A DNA stretch of 31,165 nucleotides from a virus (Duplodnaviria > Heunggongvirae > Uroviricota > Caudoviricetes): IMG/VR virus record IMGVR_UViG_2541047931_000001; one strand, written 5' to 3'. The notes under the pieces were generated by a model. It was not told the DNA's origin. It saw only the letters and a list, made by a program, of their open reading frames with translations, and did not search any database. This document shows positions 1 through 12,488 of the stretch, one piece after another. A program made the translations under genes and the position numbers. Position 1 is the first letter of the stretch. Each line of letters opens with the position of its first letter.

Positions 1-378
1 CTGCCTTTTCCGCCCAGCGTGAACACGTACTGGCGACACCCCAACAAAGGGGTGTTTGCTGGTAAGAGCCTGATAAGCGCGGCGGGGCGAAAATTCCAGA
101 GCGCGGCGTGCGCAGCAATAGTTGAGCAGTTACGTCGTCTGCCGAAACCAACGTCGGCACCTGCTTCAGTGGAGATCGTGTTGTTTCCTCCGGATAACAG
201 GATCCGCGATCTGGACAACTATAACAAGGCGCTGTTTGACGCCCTGACCCACGCGGGGGTGTGGGAAGACGACAGTCAGGTGAAAAGAATGCTGGTGGAG
301 TGGGGACCGGTTATCCCGGAAGGGAAGGTCGAGATCACTATCAGTAAGTACGAGAAAACGGCGGGTGCAGCTGCCTGA
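1..378 (+). CDS. rusA: Holliday junction resolvase RusA, 5'-truncated by the window edge
   Basis: The frame is open from base 1; upstream in-frame residues LPFPPSVN match the RusA N-terminal LPxPPSxN signature, and the conserved acidic RDLDN motif is present. Resemblance to K-12 RusA is from memory. The ORF track's apparent start at 19 is GTG. Confidence 0.75.
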   Translation: MPFPPSVNTYWRHPNKGVFAGKSLISAAGRKFQSAACAAIVEQLRRLPKPTSAPASVEIVLFPPDNRIRDLDNYNKALFDALTHAGVWEDDSQVKRMLVEWGPVIPEGKVEITISKYEKTAGAAA

Positions 379-397
379 TTAAGAGGAGAAACGAAGT

Positions 398-1207
398 ATG
401 AATAATCTGATGGTCATTGATGGTATTGAAGTTCGTCGTGATGCTTATGGGCGTTACAGCCTGAACGATCTGCATCGCGCAGCAGTAGCATCTGGTGCAA
501 ATGCCAGAACCAAGGAGCCAGGAAAGTTTCTTTCCAGCCAACAAACTGTTGAGCTTGTTCATGAATTAACCAACACCCAGAATTTGGGTGTTGACCCGGT
601 GAGCGTGATTCATGGGGGAAATGAACGGGGAACGTATGTCTGTAAGGAACTGGTGTATGCCTATGCAATGTGGATCAGCCCGTCATTCCATCTGAAGGTG
701 ATCCGTACTTTCGATATGGTAACCAGCGCGCCGGAAAAGTTATCCGGACAGGCTGCTGACAAGATGCAGGCTGGCGTGATTCTGCTGGACTTTATGCGCC
801 GGGAGTTAAATCTGTCTAACTCATCTGTGCTTGGGGCCTGTCAGAAACTCCAGGAGGCTGTTGGCTTACCGAATCTGGCACCGCGCTATGCCATTGATGC
901 ACCTGCTGACGCGCCTGATGGCTCAAGCCGCCCCACGCTGTCGCTGAGTGCACTGCTGAAGCAGTATGGTATCCGCCTGACGGCTAATCAGGCATATCAC
1001 CAGATGGCGAAGCTGGGGATCGTTGAACAACGCGAACGATACAGCCGTACCGCGATTAACAACATCAAAAAATTCTGGTCGCTGACAGCGAAAGGCTGCA
1101 TGTTCGGCAAGAACATCACCAGTCCCGCAAATCCGCGCGAGACGCAGCCGCATTTCTTCGAATCCCGATTCCCTGAGCTGTTAAAGCTGCTCGATACCGT
1201 TCATTGA
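398..1207 (+). CDS. KilA-N domain protein (antirepressor-like), 269 aa
   Basis: N-terminal MNNLMVIDGIEVRRDAYGRYSLNDLHRA fits the KilA-N/antirepressor pattern. A strong SD (AGGAG) sits just upstream of the ATG. It lies in the nin-region position between rusA and Q. Confidence 0.55.
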   Translation: MNNLMVIDGIEVRRDAYGRYSLNDLHRAAVASGANARTKEPGKFLSSQQTVELVHELTNTQNLGVDPVSVIHGGNERGTYVCKELVYAYAMWISPSFHLKVIRTFDMVTSAPEKLSGQAADKMQAGVILLDFMRRELNLSNSSVLGACQKLQEAVGLPNLAPRYAIDAPADAPDGSSRPTLSLSALLKQYGIRLTANQAYHQMAKLGIVEQRERYSRTAINNIKKFWSLTAKGCMFGKNITSPANPRETQPHFFESRFPELLKLLDTVH

Positions 1208-1208
1208 G

Positions 1209-2204
1209 GTGACCGTGAGAGCACTACTGACCCCTGAAATTGCCCCGCGTATGGGGATCGTATTGTTCAGGCCAGGTTCAGAGCTGATGCCCCTGTTTAT
1301 GCAGGGGCGTGTCCTGCTGGAGCCTGAGCCGGAACGTTATTCATCTTTTGCCAGTGGTGCCGTTCCGGCTGCATCACAACCGCTGGCGGATGATCCTGCC
1401 GTTCGGGCCGTGTTCCGCAATGAGGCAGTGATCCGTCGTGCTGGTGGCGTGGAATGTCTTGAAAGCTGGTTACTTCGTGAAAAAGGCTGCCAGTGGCCTC
1501 ATTCCGACTGGCACAGCGAGAACATGACCACAATGCGACACGCGCCGGGCGCAATCCGTCTGTGCTGGCACTGCGATAACCAACTGCGCGATCAGTTCAC
1601 GGAACGGCTGGAATCAATGGCAACGGATAACTGTGCCCGCTGGGTGTTGTCTGTTGTGCGTCGGGATCTCGGTTTTGATGACAGTCACGTTGTGACAATG
1701 CCGGAACTGTGCTGGTGGCTGATTCGTAATGATCTGGCGGATGCCTTACCGGAAAGTGCAGCCCGTAAGGCACTGAGATTACCGAAGCCTGTTGTGCCGT
1801 CTGTCACCCGGGAAAGTGACCTGGTGCCTTCGGTTCCTGCCACCAGCATCATCCAGGATAAAGCGAAAAAGGTGCTGGCGCTGAAAGTGGATCCGGAGTC
1901 GCCGGACTCTTTTATGTTACGCCCAAAACGTCGCCGCTGGGTTAATGAAAAGTACACGCGATGGGTTAAGACGCAGCCGTGCGCATGTTGTGGAAAACCT
2001 GCTGATGATCCCCACCACCTGATAGGCCACGGTCAGGGTGGAATGGGGACAAAAGCGCATGACCTCTTTGTGTTGCCTTTGTGCAGAAAGCATCACGACG
2101 AGCTGCATGCGGATAATGTGGCATTCGAAGAGAAGTATGGCTCCCAGCTGGAGCTGATATTTCGTTTTATCGATCGTGCGCTGACGATTGGTGTGCTGGC
2201 CTGA
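1209..2204 (+). CDS. DUF968-family prophage protein with C-terminal HNH-like zinc-finger motif, 331 aa
   Basis: The C-terminus carries CACCGK...DPHHL...[12 protein letters not shown] (Cys/His cluster typical of HNH-type nucleases; YdfU-like). GTG start immediately after the preceding stop. Confidence 0.5.
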
Positions 2205-2221
2205 TTTTGTGGAGAAAGTTG

Positions 2222-2605
2222 ATGCGTGATATTCAGATGGTTCTTGAGCGTTGGGGAGCGTGGGCGGCTAATAATCATGAAGATGTGACCTGGTCGTCCA
2301 TTGCCGCCGGTTTTAAGGGATTAATTCCTTCAAAAGTAAAATCTCGCCCGCAATGTTGTGACGATGACGCGATGATCATTTGCGGGTGCATGGCCCGTCT
2401 GAAAAAGAACAACAGCGATTTGCACGATTTATTAGTAGATTATTATGTAGTCGGTATGACATTCATGTCACTGGCAGGTAAGCATTGCTGCTCTGATGGT
2501 TATATCGGGAAAAGGTTACAAAAAGCTGAGGGCATAATTGAAGGGATGTTAATGGCATTAGATATCCGGTTAGAGATGGATATCGTTGTTAATAACTCTA
2601 ATTAA
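2222..2605 (+). CDS. quuD: Late antiterminator Q, small phage-21/DLP12 type, 127 aa
   Basis: Translation [26 protein letters not shown]... is recognised as the short Q family. GGAG lies 7 nt upstream of the ATG at 2222. The ORF-track start at 2207 is probably an over-extension. Confidence 0.75.
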
Positions 2606-2744
2606 TATGCCAATTGTTTACTAAAAATTATTAAAAATGGGGCGTTGAGACGCCCCCAAAAATAAAGGGTAATATATAACAGAAGGTTTATATAGTTAGA
2701 AGCAAGGTTGTGCTTCTAAAGGAAGTGGCTTGAGGGAGCCACTT

Positions 2745-2785
2745 ATATGTTGGGGAGGCAACGCCTCCCGCAACATATCTTTTTC
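2745..2785 (+). terminator. Intrinsic terminator, about 15-bp interrupted stem plus T-run
   Basis: atatgttg-gggaggc / gcctccc-gcaacatat inverted repeat followed by cttttt, placed between Q and the convergent porin gene. Confidence 0.45.
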
Positions 2786-2794
2786 GTAATCAGA

Positions 2795-3877
2795 TTAGAA
2801 CTGGTAAACCAGACCTACAGCAACGATGTCATCAGTATCAATACCAGCTGTTTTGGTAAACTTACTATCGTCAATTAAGTTGATTTTGTAATCAACAAAA
2901 GTGGACATGTTTTTATTAAAGTAGTAAGTAGCACCGACATCGACATACTTGACTAAGTCTCGGTCACCATGAACACCAAGGTCTTTACCTTTTGACTGAA
3001 GGTAAGCAACAGATGGGCGCAGACCGAAGTCAAACTGATATTGTGCTACTGCTTCAAAGTTTTGTGCTTTGTTTGCAATATGGTTATTACCAAAAACGGT
3101 CATATTCTGAGTTTCAGAATATGTGGTAGCCAGATAGATATTGTTCGCATCATATTTCAGGCCTGCAGCCCATACTTCCGCATTTTTGCCGGAGGCATTG
3201 AATTTGCTCTTACCATAGGCGACCTGACCGTCAGTGCGATCTGATTTAGCATAGGTTGCACCCACGCCGAATCCTTCATACTCATAAGTAGTGGAGAAAC
3301 CGAAACCATCACCATTGGCTTCAGTTACGTCAGTGCGGTCATTTTTACCCTGATACTGAGCAGCAAAGTTCAGGCCATCGACCAGACCAAAGAAGTCGTT
3401 GTTACGATAAGTTGCAACACCAGTAGTGCGACCAGTCATGAACACATCTGTTTGGGTCCAGGTATCACCACCGAATTCTGGCAGGACGTCAGTCCACGCA
3501 CCGATGTCGTATGCTACACCGTAGTTACGGCCGTAATCGATTGAGCCGTAATCACCAAATTTCAGGCCTGCAAATGCAAGACGGGTTTTGTCTTTGGAAG
3601 AACCTTGAGATTCAGCGCGGTTGCCTTTGAATTCATATTCCCACTGACCGAAACCAGTCAGTTGATCGTTGATTTGGGTTTCACCTTTGAAGCCAAGACG
3701 GGCATAAGTAGTATCACCATCATCTGCATCATTAGAGGAGAAGTAGTGCTTAGCATTAACTTTCCCGTACAGATCCAGCTTGTTACTGTCTTTATTATAA
3801 ATTTCAGCTGCCTGAGCAGACATCGCCATCAGTACTGATGCAGCTACAGCAGAAATTGCCACTGTTAATTTTTTCAT
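2795..3877 (-). CDS. nmpC: Outer-membrane general porin, OmpC/OmpF family, NmpC/Lc-type phage moron, 360 aa, apparently intact
   Basis: Signal peptide [23 protein letters not shown], then [16 protein letters not shown] and a C-terminal ...VGLVYQF ending in Phe, as in classical porins. Convergent with Q and located between Q and the lysis genes, as in DLP12/PA-2. Confidence 0.85.
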
Positions 3878-4305
3878 CGTGAGCCCTTTTTTTTGAACTA
3901 TTATTAAAAAATGATGTCACTGCGCGATAAATATTCATCTAATCAATGTGATTATTTCAAGATGTAAGTTTTGGTTTCTCGTTTGATTTGTGAAGTAGAT
4001 CTCTATTTTTATCTGAACTTTTTTCTATCGAATCCTATTCATAGCTCTTGGCTGAATAAAAATAAATCTATTAGCCAATTTATACTAACGGTTGTTATTT
4101 ATAAGTGCTCTATAATTTGAAGGTTCAATTTAAATCGGCTAAAAATAACACTGGAAATTATTTGTTGGTTATTTGTTGAGATTTGCTTATGTATTTGTAG
4201 TGGTGTTTTCAATACTCGGTAGCATTCTCGCAAATATCATTTAGTGGTTTACGTACGTAAAAAATTGGTTATGCTGTTAAGAGTGGTTACTTCGTCACAC
4301 AGCTT

Positions 4306-4337
4306 AAACCCGCCGTCGAGCGGGTTTTTCCATTTTT
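4306..4337 (+). terminator. tR'-like intrinsic terminator upstream of the lysis cassette
   Basis: aaacccgc / gcgggttt stem with cgtcga loop, followed by ttttccatttttt. It occupies the position of lambda tR' (end of a 6S-like leader). Confidence 0.45.
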
Positions 4338-4450
4338 TGAGTCTCGATATTAGCTGATAACCCAATACCTGAGTTATTCACTGACTTCGAGTCTGTTACG
4401 TTTCGTAGTATTCCCTCAATTTACACCCGCTTTGTCTGCGAGGTGGGGTT

Positions 4451-4666
4451 ATGAAATCCATGGATAAGTTAACAACGGGTGTCGCCTATGGCACCTCAGC
4501 AGGTAGTGCCGGGTACTGGTTTTTACAGCTGCTAGATAAAGTCACGCCCTCACAGTGGGCGGCAATTGGAGTGCTGGGTAGCCTGGTATTTGGCCTGCTG
4601 ACGTACCTGACAAACCTTTATTTCAAGATTAAAGAAGATAAGCGTAAGGCTGCGAGAGGTGAATAA
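4451..4666 (+). CDS. essD: Class II holin, phage-21 S21-type pinholin with dual start, 71 aa
   Basis: [10 protein letters not shown]... has the Met1-Lys-Ser-Met4 dual-start arrangement and two hydrophobic segments. SD GAGGTGGGG upstream. Confidence 0.85.
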
Positions 4667-5163
4667 TGTCGCCATCATTACGCAAGGCTGTAGCAGCTGC
4701 TATTGGTGGTGGGGCTGTTGCCATAGCGTCTGTGCTCATCACTGGTCCGAGTGGTGACGATGGTCTGGAAGGTGTCAGCTACATACCATATAAAGATATT
4801 GTTGGTGTATGGACTGTATGTCACGGGCATACAGGAAAAGACATCATGCTCGGTAAAACGTATACCAAAGCAGAATGCAAAGCACTCTTGAATAAAGACC
4901 TTGCCACTGTCGCCAGACAAATTAACCCGTACATCGAAGTCGATATACCGGAAACAACGCGCGGCGCTCTTTACTCATTCGTTTACAACGTGGGTGCTGG
5001 CAATTTCAGAACATCGACGCTTCTTCGCAAAATAAACCAGGGCGATATCAAAGGCGCATGTGATCAGCTACGGCGCTGGACATACGCTGGCGGTAATCAA
5101 TGGAAAGGACTGATGACTCGCCGTGAGATTGAGCGTGAAGTCTGTTTGTGGGGGAAACAATGA
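4666..5163 (+). CDS. rrrD: SAR endolysin (R21-type lysozyme), 165 aa
   Basis: N-terminal Gly/Ala-rich signal-anchor-release segment [18 protein letters not shown] followed by a lysozyme-like domain. Its start overlaps the holin stop (TAATG). Confidence 0.85.
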
Positions 5164-5618
5164 GCAGAGTAACCGCGATTATCTCCGCTCTGGTTATCTG
5201 CATCATCGTCTGCCTGTCATGGGCTGTTAATCATTACCGTGATAACGCCATTACCTACAAAGCCCAGCGCGACAAAAATGTCAGAGAACTGGAGAAGGCG
5301 AACGCCACCATCGCTGACATGCGGAAGCGTCAACGTGATGTAGCAGAACTCGATGCAAGATACACAAAGGAGCTTGCTGATGCTAACGCGACTATCGAAA
5401 GTCTCCGTGCTGATGTTTCTGCTGGGCGTAAGCGCCTGCAAGTCGCCGCCACCTGTGCAAAGTCAACGACCGGAGCCAGCGGCATGGGCGATGGAGAAAG
5501 CCCAGGACTTACAGCAGATGCTGAACTCAATTATTACCGTCTCCGAAGTGGAATCGACAAGATAACCGCGCAGGTTAACTACCTGCAGGAATACATCAGG
5601 ACGCAATGCCTGAAATAA
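5160..5618 (+). CDS. rzpD: Inner-membrane spanin Rz, 152 aa
   Basis: [40 protein letters not shown]... closely resembles lambda Rz. The ATG overlaps the endolysin stop. The ORF-track start at 5148 is GTG. Confidence 0.85.
5380..5565 (+). CDS. rzoD: Outer-membrane lipoprotein spanin Rz1, nested in the +1 frame of Rz
   Basis: Embedded ORF with lipobox LLGVSAC and a Pro-rich segment. AAGGAG lies 8 nt upstream of the ATG at 5380. The ORF-track start at 5353 is the alternative. Confidence 0.65.
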
Positions 5619-5649
5619 TTTTTTTGCAAATCACAAAGTCCATTTAATG

Positions 5650-5707
5650 AGCCTCGCGATGCGGGGCTTTTTGCAATAAATGCGTACCGCAACGCATGTT
5701 TTTTACA
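5650..5707 (+). terminator. Two tandem intrinsic-terminator-like hairpins after Rz
   Basis: agcctcgc gat gcggggct + ttttt, then atgcgt accgca acgcat + gtttttt. Confidence 0.45.
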
Positions 5708-5870
5708 CCGAACCTGCCCCTTTGGAATGGGCCTTTGAGGATACCAGTTAGTGCTGGCGAGCCTCGGTGGGCTGGTTTCCTGTGCGGCAAAGGTTCATTT
5801 CAAAGAGTAGGTACACGCTATGAAATCATTAACCCTCTTCAATTAACCAATTCGTATCGGTGAAGATGGC

Positions 5871-6317
5871 ATGATCTGCCTCACTGATATGTGGAAAGCC
5901 AGTGGTAAAAGTGAATCTGAATCGCCTTACCACTACCTGCGAAACAAGCAGACCAAAGAGTTCTTAGCCGAGCTGGAGAAAAACCACGAATCTGTGGTTT
6001 TTACTGAGCGCGGTGTACACGGTGGAACATATGGCGGGAAGTTTGTTGCTTACGATTATGCGGCTTGGTTAAACCCCGGGTTCAAGTACGCGGCCTATAA
6101 AGTCCTCGATGACTACTTCACCGGAGAACTTCAGCATCGCAACAGCTTAAGTGCGCAGCTCAACATGAAATGTCATGAGTTTGACCAGAAGAAAGACATG
6201 GCGAGCTTCTGCGGACAAGGGCTGGCAGCATGGCGCTATACGAAGCCAGTGTTGGTCGCTGAGATTAACTCCCTGGCTAACCAGCTGCAGATTACGATCC
6301 CCGGGCTTCCGGGATGA
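5871..6317 (+). CDS. KilA-N-like domain protein, 148 aa as called, possibly N-terminally disrupted
   Basis: GMICLTDMWKASGKSESESPYHYLRNKQTKEFLAEL fits the KilA-N/antirepressor N-domain pattern. An upstream in-frame ATG at 5820 is cut off by TAA at 5844. Confidence 0.4.
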   Translation: MICLTDMWKASGKSESESPYHYLRNKQTKEFLAELEKNHESVVFTERGVHGGTYGGKFVAYDYAAWLNPGFKYAAYKVLDDYFTGELQHRNSLSAQLNMKCHEFDQKKDMASFCGQGLAAWRYTKPVLVAEINSLANQLQITIPGLPG

Positions 6318-6583
6318 GTGATCATGTTATTGAATGCGCCTCCAGAGCGGGGCGCGACTTCTCAGAGTTCATGAAAGGCGAGAAGGGCATGATGGAAGCA
6401 TTGGCCTCGGTGGACGAGTTTGGCGAGCAGCTGCGCCTCAACGGCTGTGTCAATCATCACTTTGTTAGCTACATGATGCGGAACTCGATCATGCAGGCAT
6501 TCATGGACATGGCAAAAGCCGAGAGGAAAGAAGAGCGCCGGCGTAAGCGAGCGGAAGCAAAAGCAAAAGCAAAAGTGAAGTAG
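6314..6583 (+). CDS. Hypothetical protein, 89 aa, Lys/Ala/Glu-rich C-terminal tail
   Basis: Start overlaps the upstream stop (ATGA), suggesting translational coupling. No recognisable family; the C-terminus is encoded by an (AAAGC)n-like run. Confidence 0.35.
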   Translation: MSDHVIECASRAGRDFSEFMKGEKGMMEALASVDEFGEQLRLNGCVNHHFVSYMMRNSIMQAFMDMAKAERKEERRRKRAEAKAKAKVK

Positions 6584-7171
6584 CCATTACAAAGCCCATT
6601 TACGGGTGGGCTTGATAATGAAACCGGAATTTATTCTGGGCCACCAGTTAACGGCAGTACCACGAAACAACCCAAGCCAGTAAGTGGGGAAATAACACCG
6701 GCAGCCACTGAAAGATGAACCTCCTGCCTTATGGCAAAAAAGATTCTTTGTGGTGGCGGACTGATGGAAAGACATCCTAATTTCAGCCAAACATTGAAGG
6801 AGTTGTTATGTCAGCAGAAGGTTTCAATAACCCATCAAAATTCCGGGATGAGTGGGATAGCAGCGTAAAGAGTAAGTGATGCCATCACAAAAGCCATTCC
6901 CTACAGAGTGGCTTTGATAATGGCTTATACCCTACACGGGATAACTTAACTGATATCCCTTTTAAAGGATAAAGGTATTCAAGCCTGACATATCATGCGC
7001 TGTATCGTCGCCGTATTCCCGTATTAACAGAGACCGTAGCCCGACGGGGAACTCCTTCTGCGCGAGTGTGCGGGAATAATCAAAAACGATGCACACCGGG
7101 GTTACCGGGTACACATATTTCATCATGCCAGCGAGTCCGGTTCTGGCACGGAAGAAACCGGACGTTATGAT

Positions 7172-7597
7172 TTAGTGCGGAAATATTTGTGTAGTGTTCT
7201 GAATGTTCTCAGTAAAGAGTAATGAATTATCAAAGGTATAGTAATACCTTTTGTTTTCGTGGATATTTGTAATCCATCTGAAAACCCCTGCTGTAGCAAG
7301 ATTTTTCCTGTATTCGTAAAATGATAACTCTCCTGATTTGAATCCTTTTAAGGTGGCTTCTATAAGGCATTTATTTTTTGAAAATCTTACATTTACAACC
7401 TTACCCTGTCCTTTTATTAAAACCGTATTATCGTTTTCAAGAACAAGATGAATATTCTCTGTGGCTAAATAGTAAATGTAATGTGAGACATTGTGACGTT
7501 TTAGTTCAGAATAAAACCAGTGATAGTTTAAATTATTTCGCACTTTATCGAATATTTGTTTAAAAATGGCAACCTGAGCCATTGTAGTACCTTCCAT
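7172..7597 (-). CDS. Hypothetical protein, AT-rich, 141 aa (136 aa from the more probable start at 7582)
   Basis: Long ORF in a visibly AT-rich segment. GAAGG SD-like element precedes the second ATG (Met6). It lies 42-57 bp downstream of the RHH gene on the same strand. No recognisable motif. Confidence 0.45.
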
Positions 7598-7639
7598 GTG
7601 ATATGAGGGGGCGTAGTCTGCACGATTATCTAAATTGCT

Positions 7640-7873
7640 TCAATCTGGTCTAACCTGTTTTCTGAGCAATTCAGTAATGTCACTCTTTTCTTTGTTTGCT
7701 TCAGGCGAAACTCTTTTTTCTGAGCACAGTCTCCGGCGGCAGGCTTCAATGACCCAGGCTGAGAAATTCCCGGACCCTTTTTGAACAAGAGCGATGTTAA
7801 TTTGTTCAATCATTTGGTTAGGAAAGCGGATGTTGCGGGTTGTTGTTCTGCGGGTTCTGTTCTTCGTTGACAT
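7640..7873 (-). CDS. Arc/Mnt-type ribbon-helix-helix DNA-binding protein, 77 aa
   Basis: RNIRFPNQMIEQINIALVQKGSGNFSAWVIEACRRRL aligns by eye with P22 Arc FNLRWPREVLDLVRKVAEENGRSVNSEIYQRVMESF (beta-strand, helix, G-x-S, helix). Confidence 0.55.
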   Translation of the reverse strand: MSTKNRTRRTTTRNIRFPNQMIEQINIALVQKGSGNFSAWVIEACRRRLCSEKRVSPEANKEKSDITELLRKQVRPD

Positions 7874-7942
7874 GAGGTTGCCCTGTATTCAGTGTCGCTG
7901 ATTTGTATTGTCTGAAGTTGTTTTTACGTTAAGTTGATGCAG

Positions 7943-7975
7943 ATCAATTAATACGATACCTGCGTCATAATTGAT
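7943..7975. promoter_or_regulatory. Inverted repeat, candidate operator upstream of the RHH gene
   Basis: ATCAATTA - 17 bp - TAATTGAT, about 70 bp upstream of the RHH start on the minus strand, with a direct repeat of AAGTTG nearby. Confidence 0.3.
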
Positions 7976-8072
7976 TATTTGACGTGGTTTGATGGCGTAG
8001 ATGCACGTTGTGACATGTAGATGATAATTATTATCATTTTGCGGGTCCTTTCCGGCGATCCGACAGGTTACG

Positions 8073-8084
8073 GGGCGGAAGGCG
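8073..8084. other. cosN, the 12-nt cohesive-end site (variant sequence)
   Basis: Flanks CAGGTTACG | GGGCGGAAGGCG | CGCGGGTTTTCGCTATTTATGAAAATTTTCC are collinear with the lambda cos junction; the 12-mer itself differs from lambda GGGCGGCGACCT at positions 7-12. Confidence 0.7.
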
Positions 8085-8255
8085 CGCGGGTTTTCGCTAT
8101 TTATGAAAATTTTCCGGTTTAAGGCGTTTCCGTTCTTCTTCTCCGTAACTTAATGTTTTTATTTAAAACACCCCCTGAAAAGAAAGGAAACGACAGGTGC
8201 TGAAAACAGGCCTTTTGGCCTCTGTCGTTTCCTTTCTCTGTTTTTGTCCGTGGAA
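8085..8255 (+). promoter_or_regulatory. cosB, terminase small-subunit binding sites R3/R2/R1 with intervening bend site
   Basis: Repeated CGTTTCC / GGAAACG elements (gcgtttccgttcttc; aaggaaacgacagg; tctgtcgtttcctttctc) immediately upstream of Nu1, as in lambda. Confidence 0.65.
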
Positions 8256-8261
8256 TGAACA

Positions 8262-8781
8262 ATGGAAGTCAACAAAAAGCAGCTGGCTGACATTTTCGGT
8301 GCGAGTATCCGTACCATTCAGAACTGGCAGGAACAGGGAATGCCCGTTCTGCGAGGCGGTGGCAAGGGTAATGAGGTGCTTTATGACTCTGCCGCCGTCA
8401 TAAAATGGTATGCCGAAAGGGATGCTGAAATTGAGAACGAAAAGCTGCGCCGGGAGGTTGAAGAATTACGGCTGGCCAGCGAGGCAGATCTTCACCCCGG
8501 AACACTTGAATTTGAGCGCCATCGCCTGACTCGTGCTCAGGCGACGGCGCAGGAACTGAAAAATGCCAAAGAATCGGCTGAAGTGGTGGAAACCGCATTC
8601 TGTACTTTCGTGCTGTCGCGTATAGCAAGGGAAATATCCAGTATTCTCGACGGTATTCCTCTGTCGGTGCAGCGACGTTTTCCTGAGCTGGATAACCGGC
8701 ATATTGATTTCCTGAAACGGGATATCATCAAAGCCATGAACAAAGCAGCCGCGCTGGATGAACTGATACCGGGGTTGCTGA

Positions 8782-8807
<26 letters not shown>
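8262..8807 (+). CDS. Nu1: Terminase small subunit, 181 aa
   Basis: MEVNKKQLADIFGASIRTIQNWQEQGMPVLRGGGKGNEVLYDSAAVIKWYAERD... is near-identical to lambda gpNu1; same length. Confidence 0.95.

Positions 8808-12488
<3,681 letters not shown>

What the first reader, a model, noticed from the sequence alone, without database searches (positions are those of the whole stretch)
5820..6583. KilA-N-like gene apparently interrupted by an in-frame TAA near its 5' end, coupled to an 89-aa ORF with a Lys/Ala/Glu repeat tail
The ORF called at 5871 has a KilA-N-type N-domain pattern, but an ATG at 5820 in the same frame gives MKSLTLFN, then TAA, then PIRIGEDGMICL.... KilA-N domains normally begin within the first residues, which suggests a nonsense mutation or a reinitiated truncated product. 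The downstream ORF overlaps by ATGA and ends in EERRRKRAEAKAKAKVK, encoded by an (AAAGC)n-like microsatellite that could vary in length. This is the second KilA-N-type gene in the window (the other is at 398-1207).
Basis: partly seen in the sequence, partly recalled or inferred. Interest (0 to 1): 0.45.

Follow-up and report, generated by a model that had tools for sequence, protein, structure and literature searches.

The report
Nonsense-broken prophage KilA-N gene pair
A common two-gene accessory cassette of lambda-like E. coli prophages has, in this copy, a single C-to-T change that stops the first gene at codon 9; this is an ordinary inherited pseudogene allele.

Summary
Window 5820-6317 is a 165-codon gene of the HK620 hkbK family (KilA-N domain plus ORF11CD3 domain). 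It lies between the lysis genes (S, R, Rz) and the terminase genes of a lambdoid prophage. In this window codon 9 is TAA instead of CAA (C to T at 5844). HK620, ECP1, Stx2 phage 1717, 336 RefSeq E. coli genomes and homologs down to 53% identity all start at the 5820 ATG and read through. The TAA is not a sequencing error. It recurs in at least eight independent assemblies of the same prophage lineage, always with an R4H change in the downstream gene. The 148-aa remainder (5871-6317) lacks the first two beta-strands of the KilA-N fold. Its start site has a fair Shine-Dalgarno sequence that is buried in a strong hairpin, so the allele is probably null or weak. The overlapping 89-aa ORF (6314-6583, hkbL family) is intact and predicted to be a three-helix protein. 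Its tail repeat has a 6-nt unit (AAGCAA), not 5 nt, and varies in frame from 1 to 6 copies among relatives, including within the TAA lineage. The function of the cassette is not known. Interest is low.

The parts
5820..6317 (+). Whole hkbK-family gene (KilA-N + ORF11CD3), 165 codons in intact relatives. Here it is a pseudogene because of an in-frame TAA at codon 9.
   Evidence: Intact 498-nt CDS at the same position in E. coli OkiPb01701, HK620 hkbK, ECP1 and Stx2 phage 1717. Alignments. Pfam PF04383 E 1.3e-15 and PF10549 E 2.4e-13 on the intact allele.
5844..5846 (+). Premature stop TAA. C to T at 5844 converts CAA (Gln9) to TAA.
   Evidence: Alignment A1, column 65. None of 336 RefSeq complete E. 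coli genomes carrying this 61-mer matches it exactly; 335 are at 98.4%, i.e. one mismatch. The TAA is present in L005-L008, L011-L013 and L017.
5871..6317 (+). Residual 148-aa ORF starting at Met18. It lacks residues 1-17 (beta1 and beta2 of the KilA-N fold) and keeps the rest of KilA-N and the ORF11CD3 helix.
   Evidence: KilA-N model positions 17-106 only. AF2 model of an intact homolog: strands 2-6 and 9-13, pLDDT 79-86. Databases hold this product as a 148-aa 'KilA-N domain-containing protein' on 201 contigs.
5847..5894 (+). Predicted mRNA hairpin that encloses the GGUGA Shine-Dalgarno sequence (5859-5863) and AUG 5871.
   Evidence: -19.9 kcal/mol, z -3.4 against shuffles. SD:anti-SD -6.0 kcal/mol with 7-nt spacing, against -6.2 kcal/mol for the native AUG 5820. 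A functional role is inferred, not shown.
6314..6583 (+). hkbL-family small gene (89 aa), intact, overlapping the upstream stop by ATGA (6314-6317). It carries R4H relative to most relatives.
   Evidence: phrog_875 E 1.5e-53, no Pfam family. 98-99% identical to HK620 hkbL, ECP1 and 1717. AF2 model with three helices, pLDDT 89.5. Always directly downstream of a KilA-N gene, even in unrelated phage contexts.
6555..6575 (+). Hexanucleotide repeat (AAGCAA) x 3.5, in codon register GCA-AAA x 3, encoding the (Ala-Lys)n tail.
   Evidence: TRF period 6, 100% matches. The gapped-pattern scan of 119 IMG/VR contigs gave 1 GCAAAA copy in 90, 2 in 10, 3 in 10, 4 in 4, 5 in 4 and 6 in 1. L012 and L017, within the TAA lineage, have one unit fewer.
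5680..5697 (+). Terminator-like hairpin plus T-run between Rz and the cassette. It marks the upstream boundary of the inserted module.
   Evidence: Consensus scan only. No sigma-70-like promoter was found on the + strand between Rz and 5820.

Best explanation
Window 5820-6583 is a two-gene accessory cassette of the HK620 hkbK/hkbL type. It is inserted in the late operon of a lambdoid prophage, between the spanin gene Rz and the Nu1/gpA terminase genes. Gene 1 normally encodes a 165-aa protein of the 'Bro network'. Its N-terminal KilA-N domain has the fold of the APSES DNA-binding domains, and it is followed by one long helix (ORF11CD3). Gene 2 encodes a small three-helix protein with a basic tail; it is translationally coupled to gene 1 by an ATGA overlap and has almost no Shine-Dalgarno sequence of its own. 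In this prophage lineage a single C-to-T transition at 5844 turned Gln9 (CAA) into TAA. This is shown. Inferred: ribosomes starting at the native AUG 5820 release after 8 codons. Any product must then come from reinitiation at AUG 5871 (Met18), whose SD and start codon lie in a stable hairpin. Such a product would lack the first two strands of the KilA-N sheet, so the DNA-binding domain is probably misfolded and gene 1 is null or strongly hypomorphic. Expression of gene 2 is probably reduced because it depends on coupling. The head and tail genes of the window form an unbroken ORF series, so the cassette appears dispensable and the lesion looks like neutral decay of an accessory gene. The (AAGCAA)n repeat is an ordinary in-frame slippage polymorphism in a non-conserved tail.
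Against: No expression or protein data exist. AUG 5871 has an SD as good as the native one (-6.0 against -6.2 kcal/mol), so a truncated protein may be made. That protein still passes the Pfam KilA-N threshold (49.4 bits) and keeps the whole ORF11CD3 helix, so residual or altered activity cannot be excluded. The biological role of the intact cassette is uncharacterised: no literature on hkbK was found, there is no solved structure, and there is no NCBIfam model.
Confidence: 0.9

Rival explanations
1. The TAA is a sequencing or assembly error and the gene is really intact.
For: No RefSeq complete E. coli genome in the collection carries it: none of the 336 genomes matched the 61-mer exactly. It was also absent from the GTDB species representatives.
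Against: The identical allele is present in seven GenBank/ENA assemblies from different projects and in one IMG/VR contig. It is always on the same R4H haplotype. In these assemblies the prophage has since diverged, by deletions downstream of window 6945 or 6740 and by loss of one repeat unit.
Confidence: 0.02
2. The truncated Met18 protein is made by reinitiation and is functional, either as a shortened regulator or as a dominant-negative that still oligomerises through the ORF11CD3 helix.
For: A GGUGA SD lies 7 nt upstream of AUG 5871 (-6.0 kcal/mol). The stop is only 24 nt upstream of that AUG. Met18 is conserved in at least 90% of the aligned homologs. ORF11CD3 is intact.
Against: The SD and AUG lie in a -19.9 kcal/mol hairpin. 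The lost residues form two of the four strands of the predicted sheet. HK620 has no usable SD before Met18 (AGGA abuts the ATG), so there is no conserved internal start. Other lineages disrupt the gene at quite different places: a 2-bp deletion in the ORF11CD3-coding part in strain MDR_56 (annotated 'frameshifted') and IS insertions. That pattern fits plain decay.
Confidence: 0.15
3. The KilA-N protein is toxic (as the name kil suggests), and inactivation is positively selected in resident prophages while the downstream partner is kept.
For: There are several independent lesions in the same gene: Q9* here, a 2-bp deletion in MDR_56 and L038/L039, IS insertions at three different 5' positions in L009, L010 and L014, and other premature stops in IMG/VR loci.
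Against: Among 62 unique IMG/VR alleles the hkbL gene is disrupted about as often as the KilA-N gene, roughly 6 against 5. About 90% of copies of both genes are intact, including those in plaque-forming phages HK620 and ECP1. The sample gives no excess of KilA-N lesions.
Confidence: 0.07
4. The TAA is decoded by programmed readthrough or recoding, so that full-length protein is still made.
For: None beyond the in-frame position. TAA followed by C is not the strongest termination context in E. coli (general knowledge).
Against: The allele is derived and rare. Relatives have an ordinary sense codon. Rfam found no recoding element or any other RNA family in the window. There is no suppressor tRNA in the window.
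Confidence: 0.01

Closest known systems
hkbK / hkbL of coliphage HK620 (NP_112071, NP_112072), with the same pair in phage ECP1 and Stx2 phages 1717 and 2851
   Same: Same position (after Rz, before the packaging genes), same ATGA-coupled pair, and 97-100% amino-acid identity from residue 18 onward. hkbL is 98-99% identical.
   Different: The window copy has Q9* (TAA) and R4H. HK620 diverges in the first 17 codons. HK620 and 1717 have 1 GCAAAA copy (85 aa) against 3 here (89 aa).
Bro-network phage proteins (KilA-N, Bro-N, Rha, ANT, P22_AR, ORF11CD3 and others), described as domain-swapping proteins in PMC10111431. Rha-like regulators share the ORF11CD3 module.
   Same: Two-module architecture with a swappable N-terminal DNA-binding domain and a C-terminal module. 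PHROG 'Rha-like transcriptional regulator' matches residues 105-163 only (E 1.6e-09). A Klebsiella relative pairs KilA-N with P63C instead of ORF11CD3 in front of the same small gene.
   Different: No antirepressor or regulatory activity has been shown for this subfamily. This copy is truncated.
APSES DNA-binding domain of fungal Mbp1/Swi4 (PDB 1bm8), regarded as derived from viral KilA-N (PMC4862756)
   Different: Only 14% identity. The bacterial phage protein has a single long C-terminal helix instead of ankyrin repeats.
[quoted passage not shown]
   Same: Prophage-encoded, with a KilA-N-type N-domain.
   Different: BstA is about 307 aa, has a different C-terminal domain, and sits near the repressor rather than in the late operon. 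PADLOC gave only a 30-residue match to candidate PDC-S22 and no BstA hit.
KilA of phage P1 (from memory: the founding KilA-N protein, lethal to the host when expressed)
   Same: The HK620 annotation notes similarity to P1 KilA. Both share the KilA-N domain.
   Different: P1 KilA is larger and part of the lytic replicon operon. Toxicity was not tested for this family.

Membership tests
KilA-N domain proteins (Pfam PF04383) | Profile match above the curated gathering score | tested here: met
   57.6 bits for the intact allele and 49.4 bits for the window ORF, against a cut-off of 23.8.
KilA-N domain proteins (Pfam PF04383) | Complete domain, including the N-terminal beta-hairpin that starts within the first residues | tested here: not met
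   The window ORF aligns to model positions 17-106 only. The intact allele aligns to 8-106. Strands 2-6 and 9-13 of the model lie in the lost segment.
KilA-N domain proteins (Pfam PF04383) | APSES-like alpha+beta fold | tested here: met
KilA-N domain proteins (Pfam PF04383) | DNA binding | not testable with these tools
   Needs EMSA or ChIP with the intact and the Met18 proteins.
ORF11CD3 domain (Pfam PF10549) | Profile match above the gathering score, over the full length of the model | tested here: met
   50.8 bits against a cut-off of 25, model positions 1-54 of 54, residues 92-144 of the window ORF.
hkbL family (phrog_875) | Full-length profile match and position directly downstream of a KilA-N gene | tested here: met
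   E 1.5e-53 over positions 1-85 of 85. Adjacency is conserved in E. coli, Klebsiella and Enterobacter loci.
BstA-type abortive-infection defence | BstA C-terminal domain, or a PADLOC BstA model hit | tested here: not met
   PADLOC returned only PDC-S22 over residues 60-90 (E 1.2e-08), which is the shared KilA-N core.
Phase-variable contingency locus (simple-sequence-repeat switch) | Repeat unit not divisible by 3, or located in a promoter, so that slippage switches expression on and off | tested here: not met
   The unit is 6 nt and lies inside the ORF. All observed alleles (85 to 95 aa) stay in frame.
Pseudogene by nonsense mutation | Derived in-frame stop relative to intact orthologues, reproducible in independent assemblies | tested here: met

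The most novel reading that the evidence does not exclude
The KilA-N/hkbL pair is a mobile toxin-like or abortive-infection module, with a DNA-binding KilA-N effector controlled by the small coupled partner. Under this reading the repeated knock-outs of the KilA-N gene in resident prophages (a nonsense mutation, frameshift mutations and three IS insertions) reflect selection against its cost, or the Met18 product acts as a dominant-negative.
Probability: 0.07. Interest if true: 0.5.

Novelty: already known. Interest (0 to 1): 0.12.

Why it matters
It matters little beyond annotation. Public databases list the 148-aa remnant as an ordinary 'KilA-N domain-containing protein', although it is the tail of a gene broken at codon 9 and should be flagged as a pseudogene. 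The survey adds two small facts. First, hkbK/hkbL travel as a coupled two-gene cassette that inserts at different places in the late operons of unrelated enterobacterial phages. Second, the function of this widespread cassette is still unknown, so it is a reasonable target for a defence or regulation screen using an intact allele rather than this one.

Tried and rejected
1. Sequencing error. Rejected, because the allele recurs in eight assemblies.
2. Homologs starting at Met18. Rejected.
3. Specific selection against the KilA-N gene. I compared disruption of KilA-N and hkbL among 62 unique IMG/VR alleles and found about equal numbers, so there is no support.
4. Phase variation through the repeat. 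Rejected, because the unit is 6 nt and all alleles stay in frame.
6. Known defence system. PADLOC gave only a short KilA-N-core match to candidate PDC-S22.
7. Literature on hkbK. The search returned only unrelated papers. ORF11CD3 appears only in a list of Bro-network domains.
8. An own promoter for the cassette. No sigma-70-like site was found on the + strand between Rz and 5820.
9. An RNA element or tRNA in the window. None was found.
10. Exact-match scan of the GTDB species representatives for the TAA 30-mer. It gave 0 hits. An attempt to fetch NZ_CP164749 from the RefSeq E. coli set failed, so the TAA-carrying complete genomes are not in that collection.

Full report
**Observation**

- ATG 5820 gives MKSLTLFN, followed by TAA at 5844-5846.
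- The same frame continues PIRIGEDG and reaches ATG 5871, which opens a 148-aa ORF ending at 6317.
- An 89-aa ORF (6314-6583) overlaps that stop by ATGA and ends in RAEAKAKAKVK.
- Tandem Repeats Finder gives a repeat of period 6, (AAGCAA) x 3.5 at 6555-6575, and not a pentamer.

**Context**

The window is the late half of a lambdoid prophage. Pfam and the ORF list give this order:
- RusA, a 269-aa KilA-N protein (398-1207), DUF968 and the Q antiterminator;
- an OmpC-like porin on the minus strand;
- an S21-type holin, a lysozyme and Rz;
- the finding itself;
- a 54-aa ORF, DUF1398 and a YlcI/YnfO-like protein on the minus strand;
- Nu1, gpA and portal, followed by an unbroken lambda-like series of head and tail ORFs that I did not annotate individually.

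**What the gene is**

The 1-kb region matches 1,586 of 5,426 RefSeq complete E. coli genomes and 199 phage records. In E. coli OkiPb01701, HK620 (hkbK/hkbL), ECP1 and Stx2 phage 1717 the first gene is annotated as a 498-nt, 165-aa 'KilA-N domain-containing protein'. It starts exactly at the position of window 5820 and is followed by an overlapping 85- or 89-aa hypothetical gene.

The DNA alignment shows one relevant difference. The close relatives (OkiPb01701, ECP1, phage 1717) have CAA at codon 9, HK620 has ACA, and the window has TAA, which is a C-to-T change at 5844. From residue 18 onward the proteins are 97-100% identical.

The N-terminus belongs to the family:
- The intact protein matches Pfam KilA-N (residues 9-101, model positions 8-106 of 107, E 1.3e-15) and ORF11CD3 (residues 109-161, E 2.4e-13).
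- The window ORF matches KilA-N only from model position 17.
- Seventeen full-length homologs down to 53% identity, from Pantoea, Cronobacter, Salmonella, Yersinia and Erwinia phage phiEt88, all begin with the M-K-x-L-T-L-F-N-x-P-V-R-V motif.

**Is the TAA real?**

None of the 336 RefSeq complete genomes that carry this 61-mer matches it exactly; 335 are at 98.4%, which is one mismatch. The GTDB species representatives do not contain it either.

However, an exact look-up of the 148-aa product found it in many assemblies. In seven of the ten places shown (L005-L008, L011-L013) the upstream DNA carries the same TAA. One IMG/VR contig (L017) carries it too.
- These loci are 99.8-100% identical to the window over up to 12.3 kb.
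- All carry the linked R4H change in the downstream gene.
- They differ in later events. In L007, L011 and L013 homology ends at window 6945. In L012 it ends at 6740. L012 and L017 have lost one repeat unit.

The allele is therefore inherited within one prophage lineage and is not an error.

The same 148-aa product is also called where an IS element has replaced the 5' end (L009, L010 and L014, at three different junctions). Strain MDR_56 keeps CAA but has a 2-bp deletion in the ORF11CD3-coding part of the gene, and PGAP annotates it as 'frameshifted'.

**Consequence for the protein**

An AlphaFold2 model of an intact homolog (pLDDT 84.5) has these elements:
- strands at residues 2-6 and 9-13, and short strands at 19-20 and 71-72;
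- helices at 21-28, 36-41, 43-54 and 74-84;
- one long helix at 86-156, which corresponds to ORF11CD3.

On translation:
- AUG 5871 has a GGUGA Shine-Dalgarno sequence at 7-nt spacing (-6.0 kcal/mol), close to the native AUG 5820 (-6.2 kcal/mol).
- This SD and the AUG lie inside a hairpin of -19.9 kcal/mol (z -3.4).
- HK620 has no usable SD at this place, so an internal start is not a conserved feature.
- The hkbL start has almost no SD (-2.5 kcal/mol) and overlaps the upstream stop.

I infer, but cannot show, that little truncated protein is made, that what is made is misfolded in its N-domain, and that hkbL expression falls with it.

**The downstream gene and its repeat**

The 89-aa ORF is a full-length member of phrog_875 (unknown function), has no Pfam or NCBIfam family and has no PDB relative.
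- Homologs are restricted to enterobacterial phages and prophages, including HK97 gp61.
- They share a conserved core, E-C-A-S-R-x-G-R-D-F-S ... G-C-V-N-H-H-F, and a variable basic tail.
- The AF2 model (pLDDT 89.5) is a three-helix protein with a long C-terminal helix.

The repeat codes for (Ala-Lys)n in the variable tail. A gapped-pattern scan of IMG/VR found 1 GCAAAA copy in 90 contigs, 2 in 10, 3 in 10, 4 in 4, 5 in 4 and 6 in 1. That corresponds to proteins of 85 to 95 aa, all in frame. Copy number changes even within the R4H haplotype, which has 85-, 87- and 89-aa forms. This is ordinary slippage polymorphism and not a phase-variation switch.

**The pair is a cassette**

More distant hkbL homologs in Klebsiella and Enterobacter lie directly downstream of a KilA-N gene (KilA-N+P63C or KilA-N+ORF11CD3). 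Those pairs sit among tail genes rather than after Rz. The two genes therefore move together and are probably functionally linked.

KilA-N and ORF11CD3 are listed among the domain-swapping 'Bro network' phage proteins (PMC10111431). A Rha-like PHROG shares only the ORF11CD3 part. PADLOC gives no real defence-system assignment. No paper on hkbK was found. The function of the intact cassette remains unknown. My best guess is a late-expressed DNA-binding accessory regulator or exclusion factor that acts with its small partner.

**Is the gene singled out for inactivation?**

The several independent lesions suggested this. Among 62 unique IMG/VR alleles, however, hkbL is disrupted about as often as the KilA-N gene, and about 90% of both are intact. 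I therefore treat the lesions as neutral decay of accessory genes.

**Verdict**

The feature is an ordinary, already-catalogued pseudogene allele of a known phage gene family, next to a small gene with a mundane in-frame repeat polymorphism. Interest is low (0.12).

Noticed in passing
window 398-1207 (+): A second, unrelated-subfamily KilA-N gene (269 aa, PF04383 E 2.4e-22) lies between RusA and DUF968 in the early-right region. It is only 27% identical to the hkbK-type protein over the KilA-N core. This arrangement is conserved in the relatives L005-L008 and L011-L012; in L013 the corresponding gene is called at only 166 aa.
   Followed up: partly
window 2795-3877 (-): An OmpC/NmpC-like porin gene (Porin_1, E 1.8e-151) sits on the opposite strand between the Q antiterminator and the holin. 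RefSeq annotates the gene at the corresponding position in E. coli OkiPb01701 (L001) as 'porin OmpC'.
   Followed up: partly
window 5353-5565 (+), inside Rz (5148-5618): An embedded out-of-frame ORF contains the lipobox-like sequence LLGVSAC followed by a proline-rich stretch. It looks like the Rz1 o-spanin nested in Rz. It was not checked by profile search.
   Followed up: no
window 6740 and 6945; loci L007, L011, L012, L013: Near-identical relatives of this prophage lose homology just downstream of the cassette. In L007, L011 and L013 the break is at window 6945 and is followed by AAA_15/AAA_21 ATPase genes and the xdh region. In L012 the break is at window 6740 and is followed by an IS and an invasin-like gene. 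The prophage has therefore been truncated there in some strains.
   Followed up: partly
loci L009, L010, L014 (5' end of the hkbK homolog): IS3-family elements are inserted at three different positions in the first ~50 nt of the KilA-N gene, and in each case the same 148-aa ORF is called. L010 also has a ParD/ParE-like pair between Rz and the IS.
   Followed up: partly
window 7172-7597 (-) and 7640-7873 (-): DUF1398 (YbcV-like) and DUF3950 (YlcI/YnfO-like) genes lie on the minus strand between the cassette and Nu1. There is also an unannotated 54-aa ORF at 6962-7126 (-) that gene callers pick up in relatives.
   Followed up: no
IMG/VR locus L078; cluster member P0004: Some alleles of the KilA-N gene read as 184 aa instead of 165 aa, apparently through loss of the normal stop.
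   Followed up: no
RefSeq E. coli collection versus GenBank: Complete genomes that carry the TAA allele (CP164749.1, CP160322.1) are not in the RefSeq complete-genome E. coli collection that was searched. The best match of window 1-12000 in that collection is only 96.8% identical. The reason is unknown.
   Followed up: no
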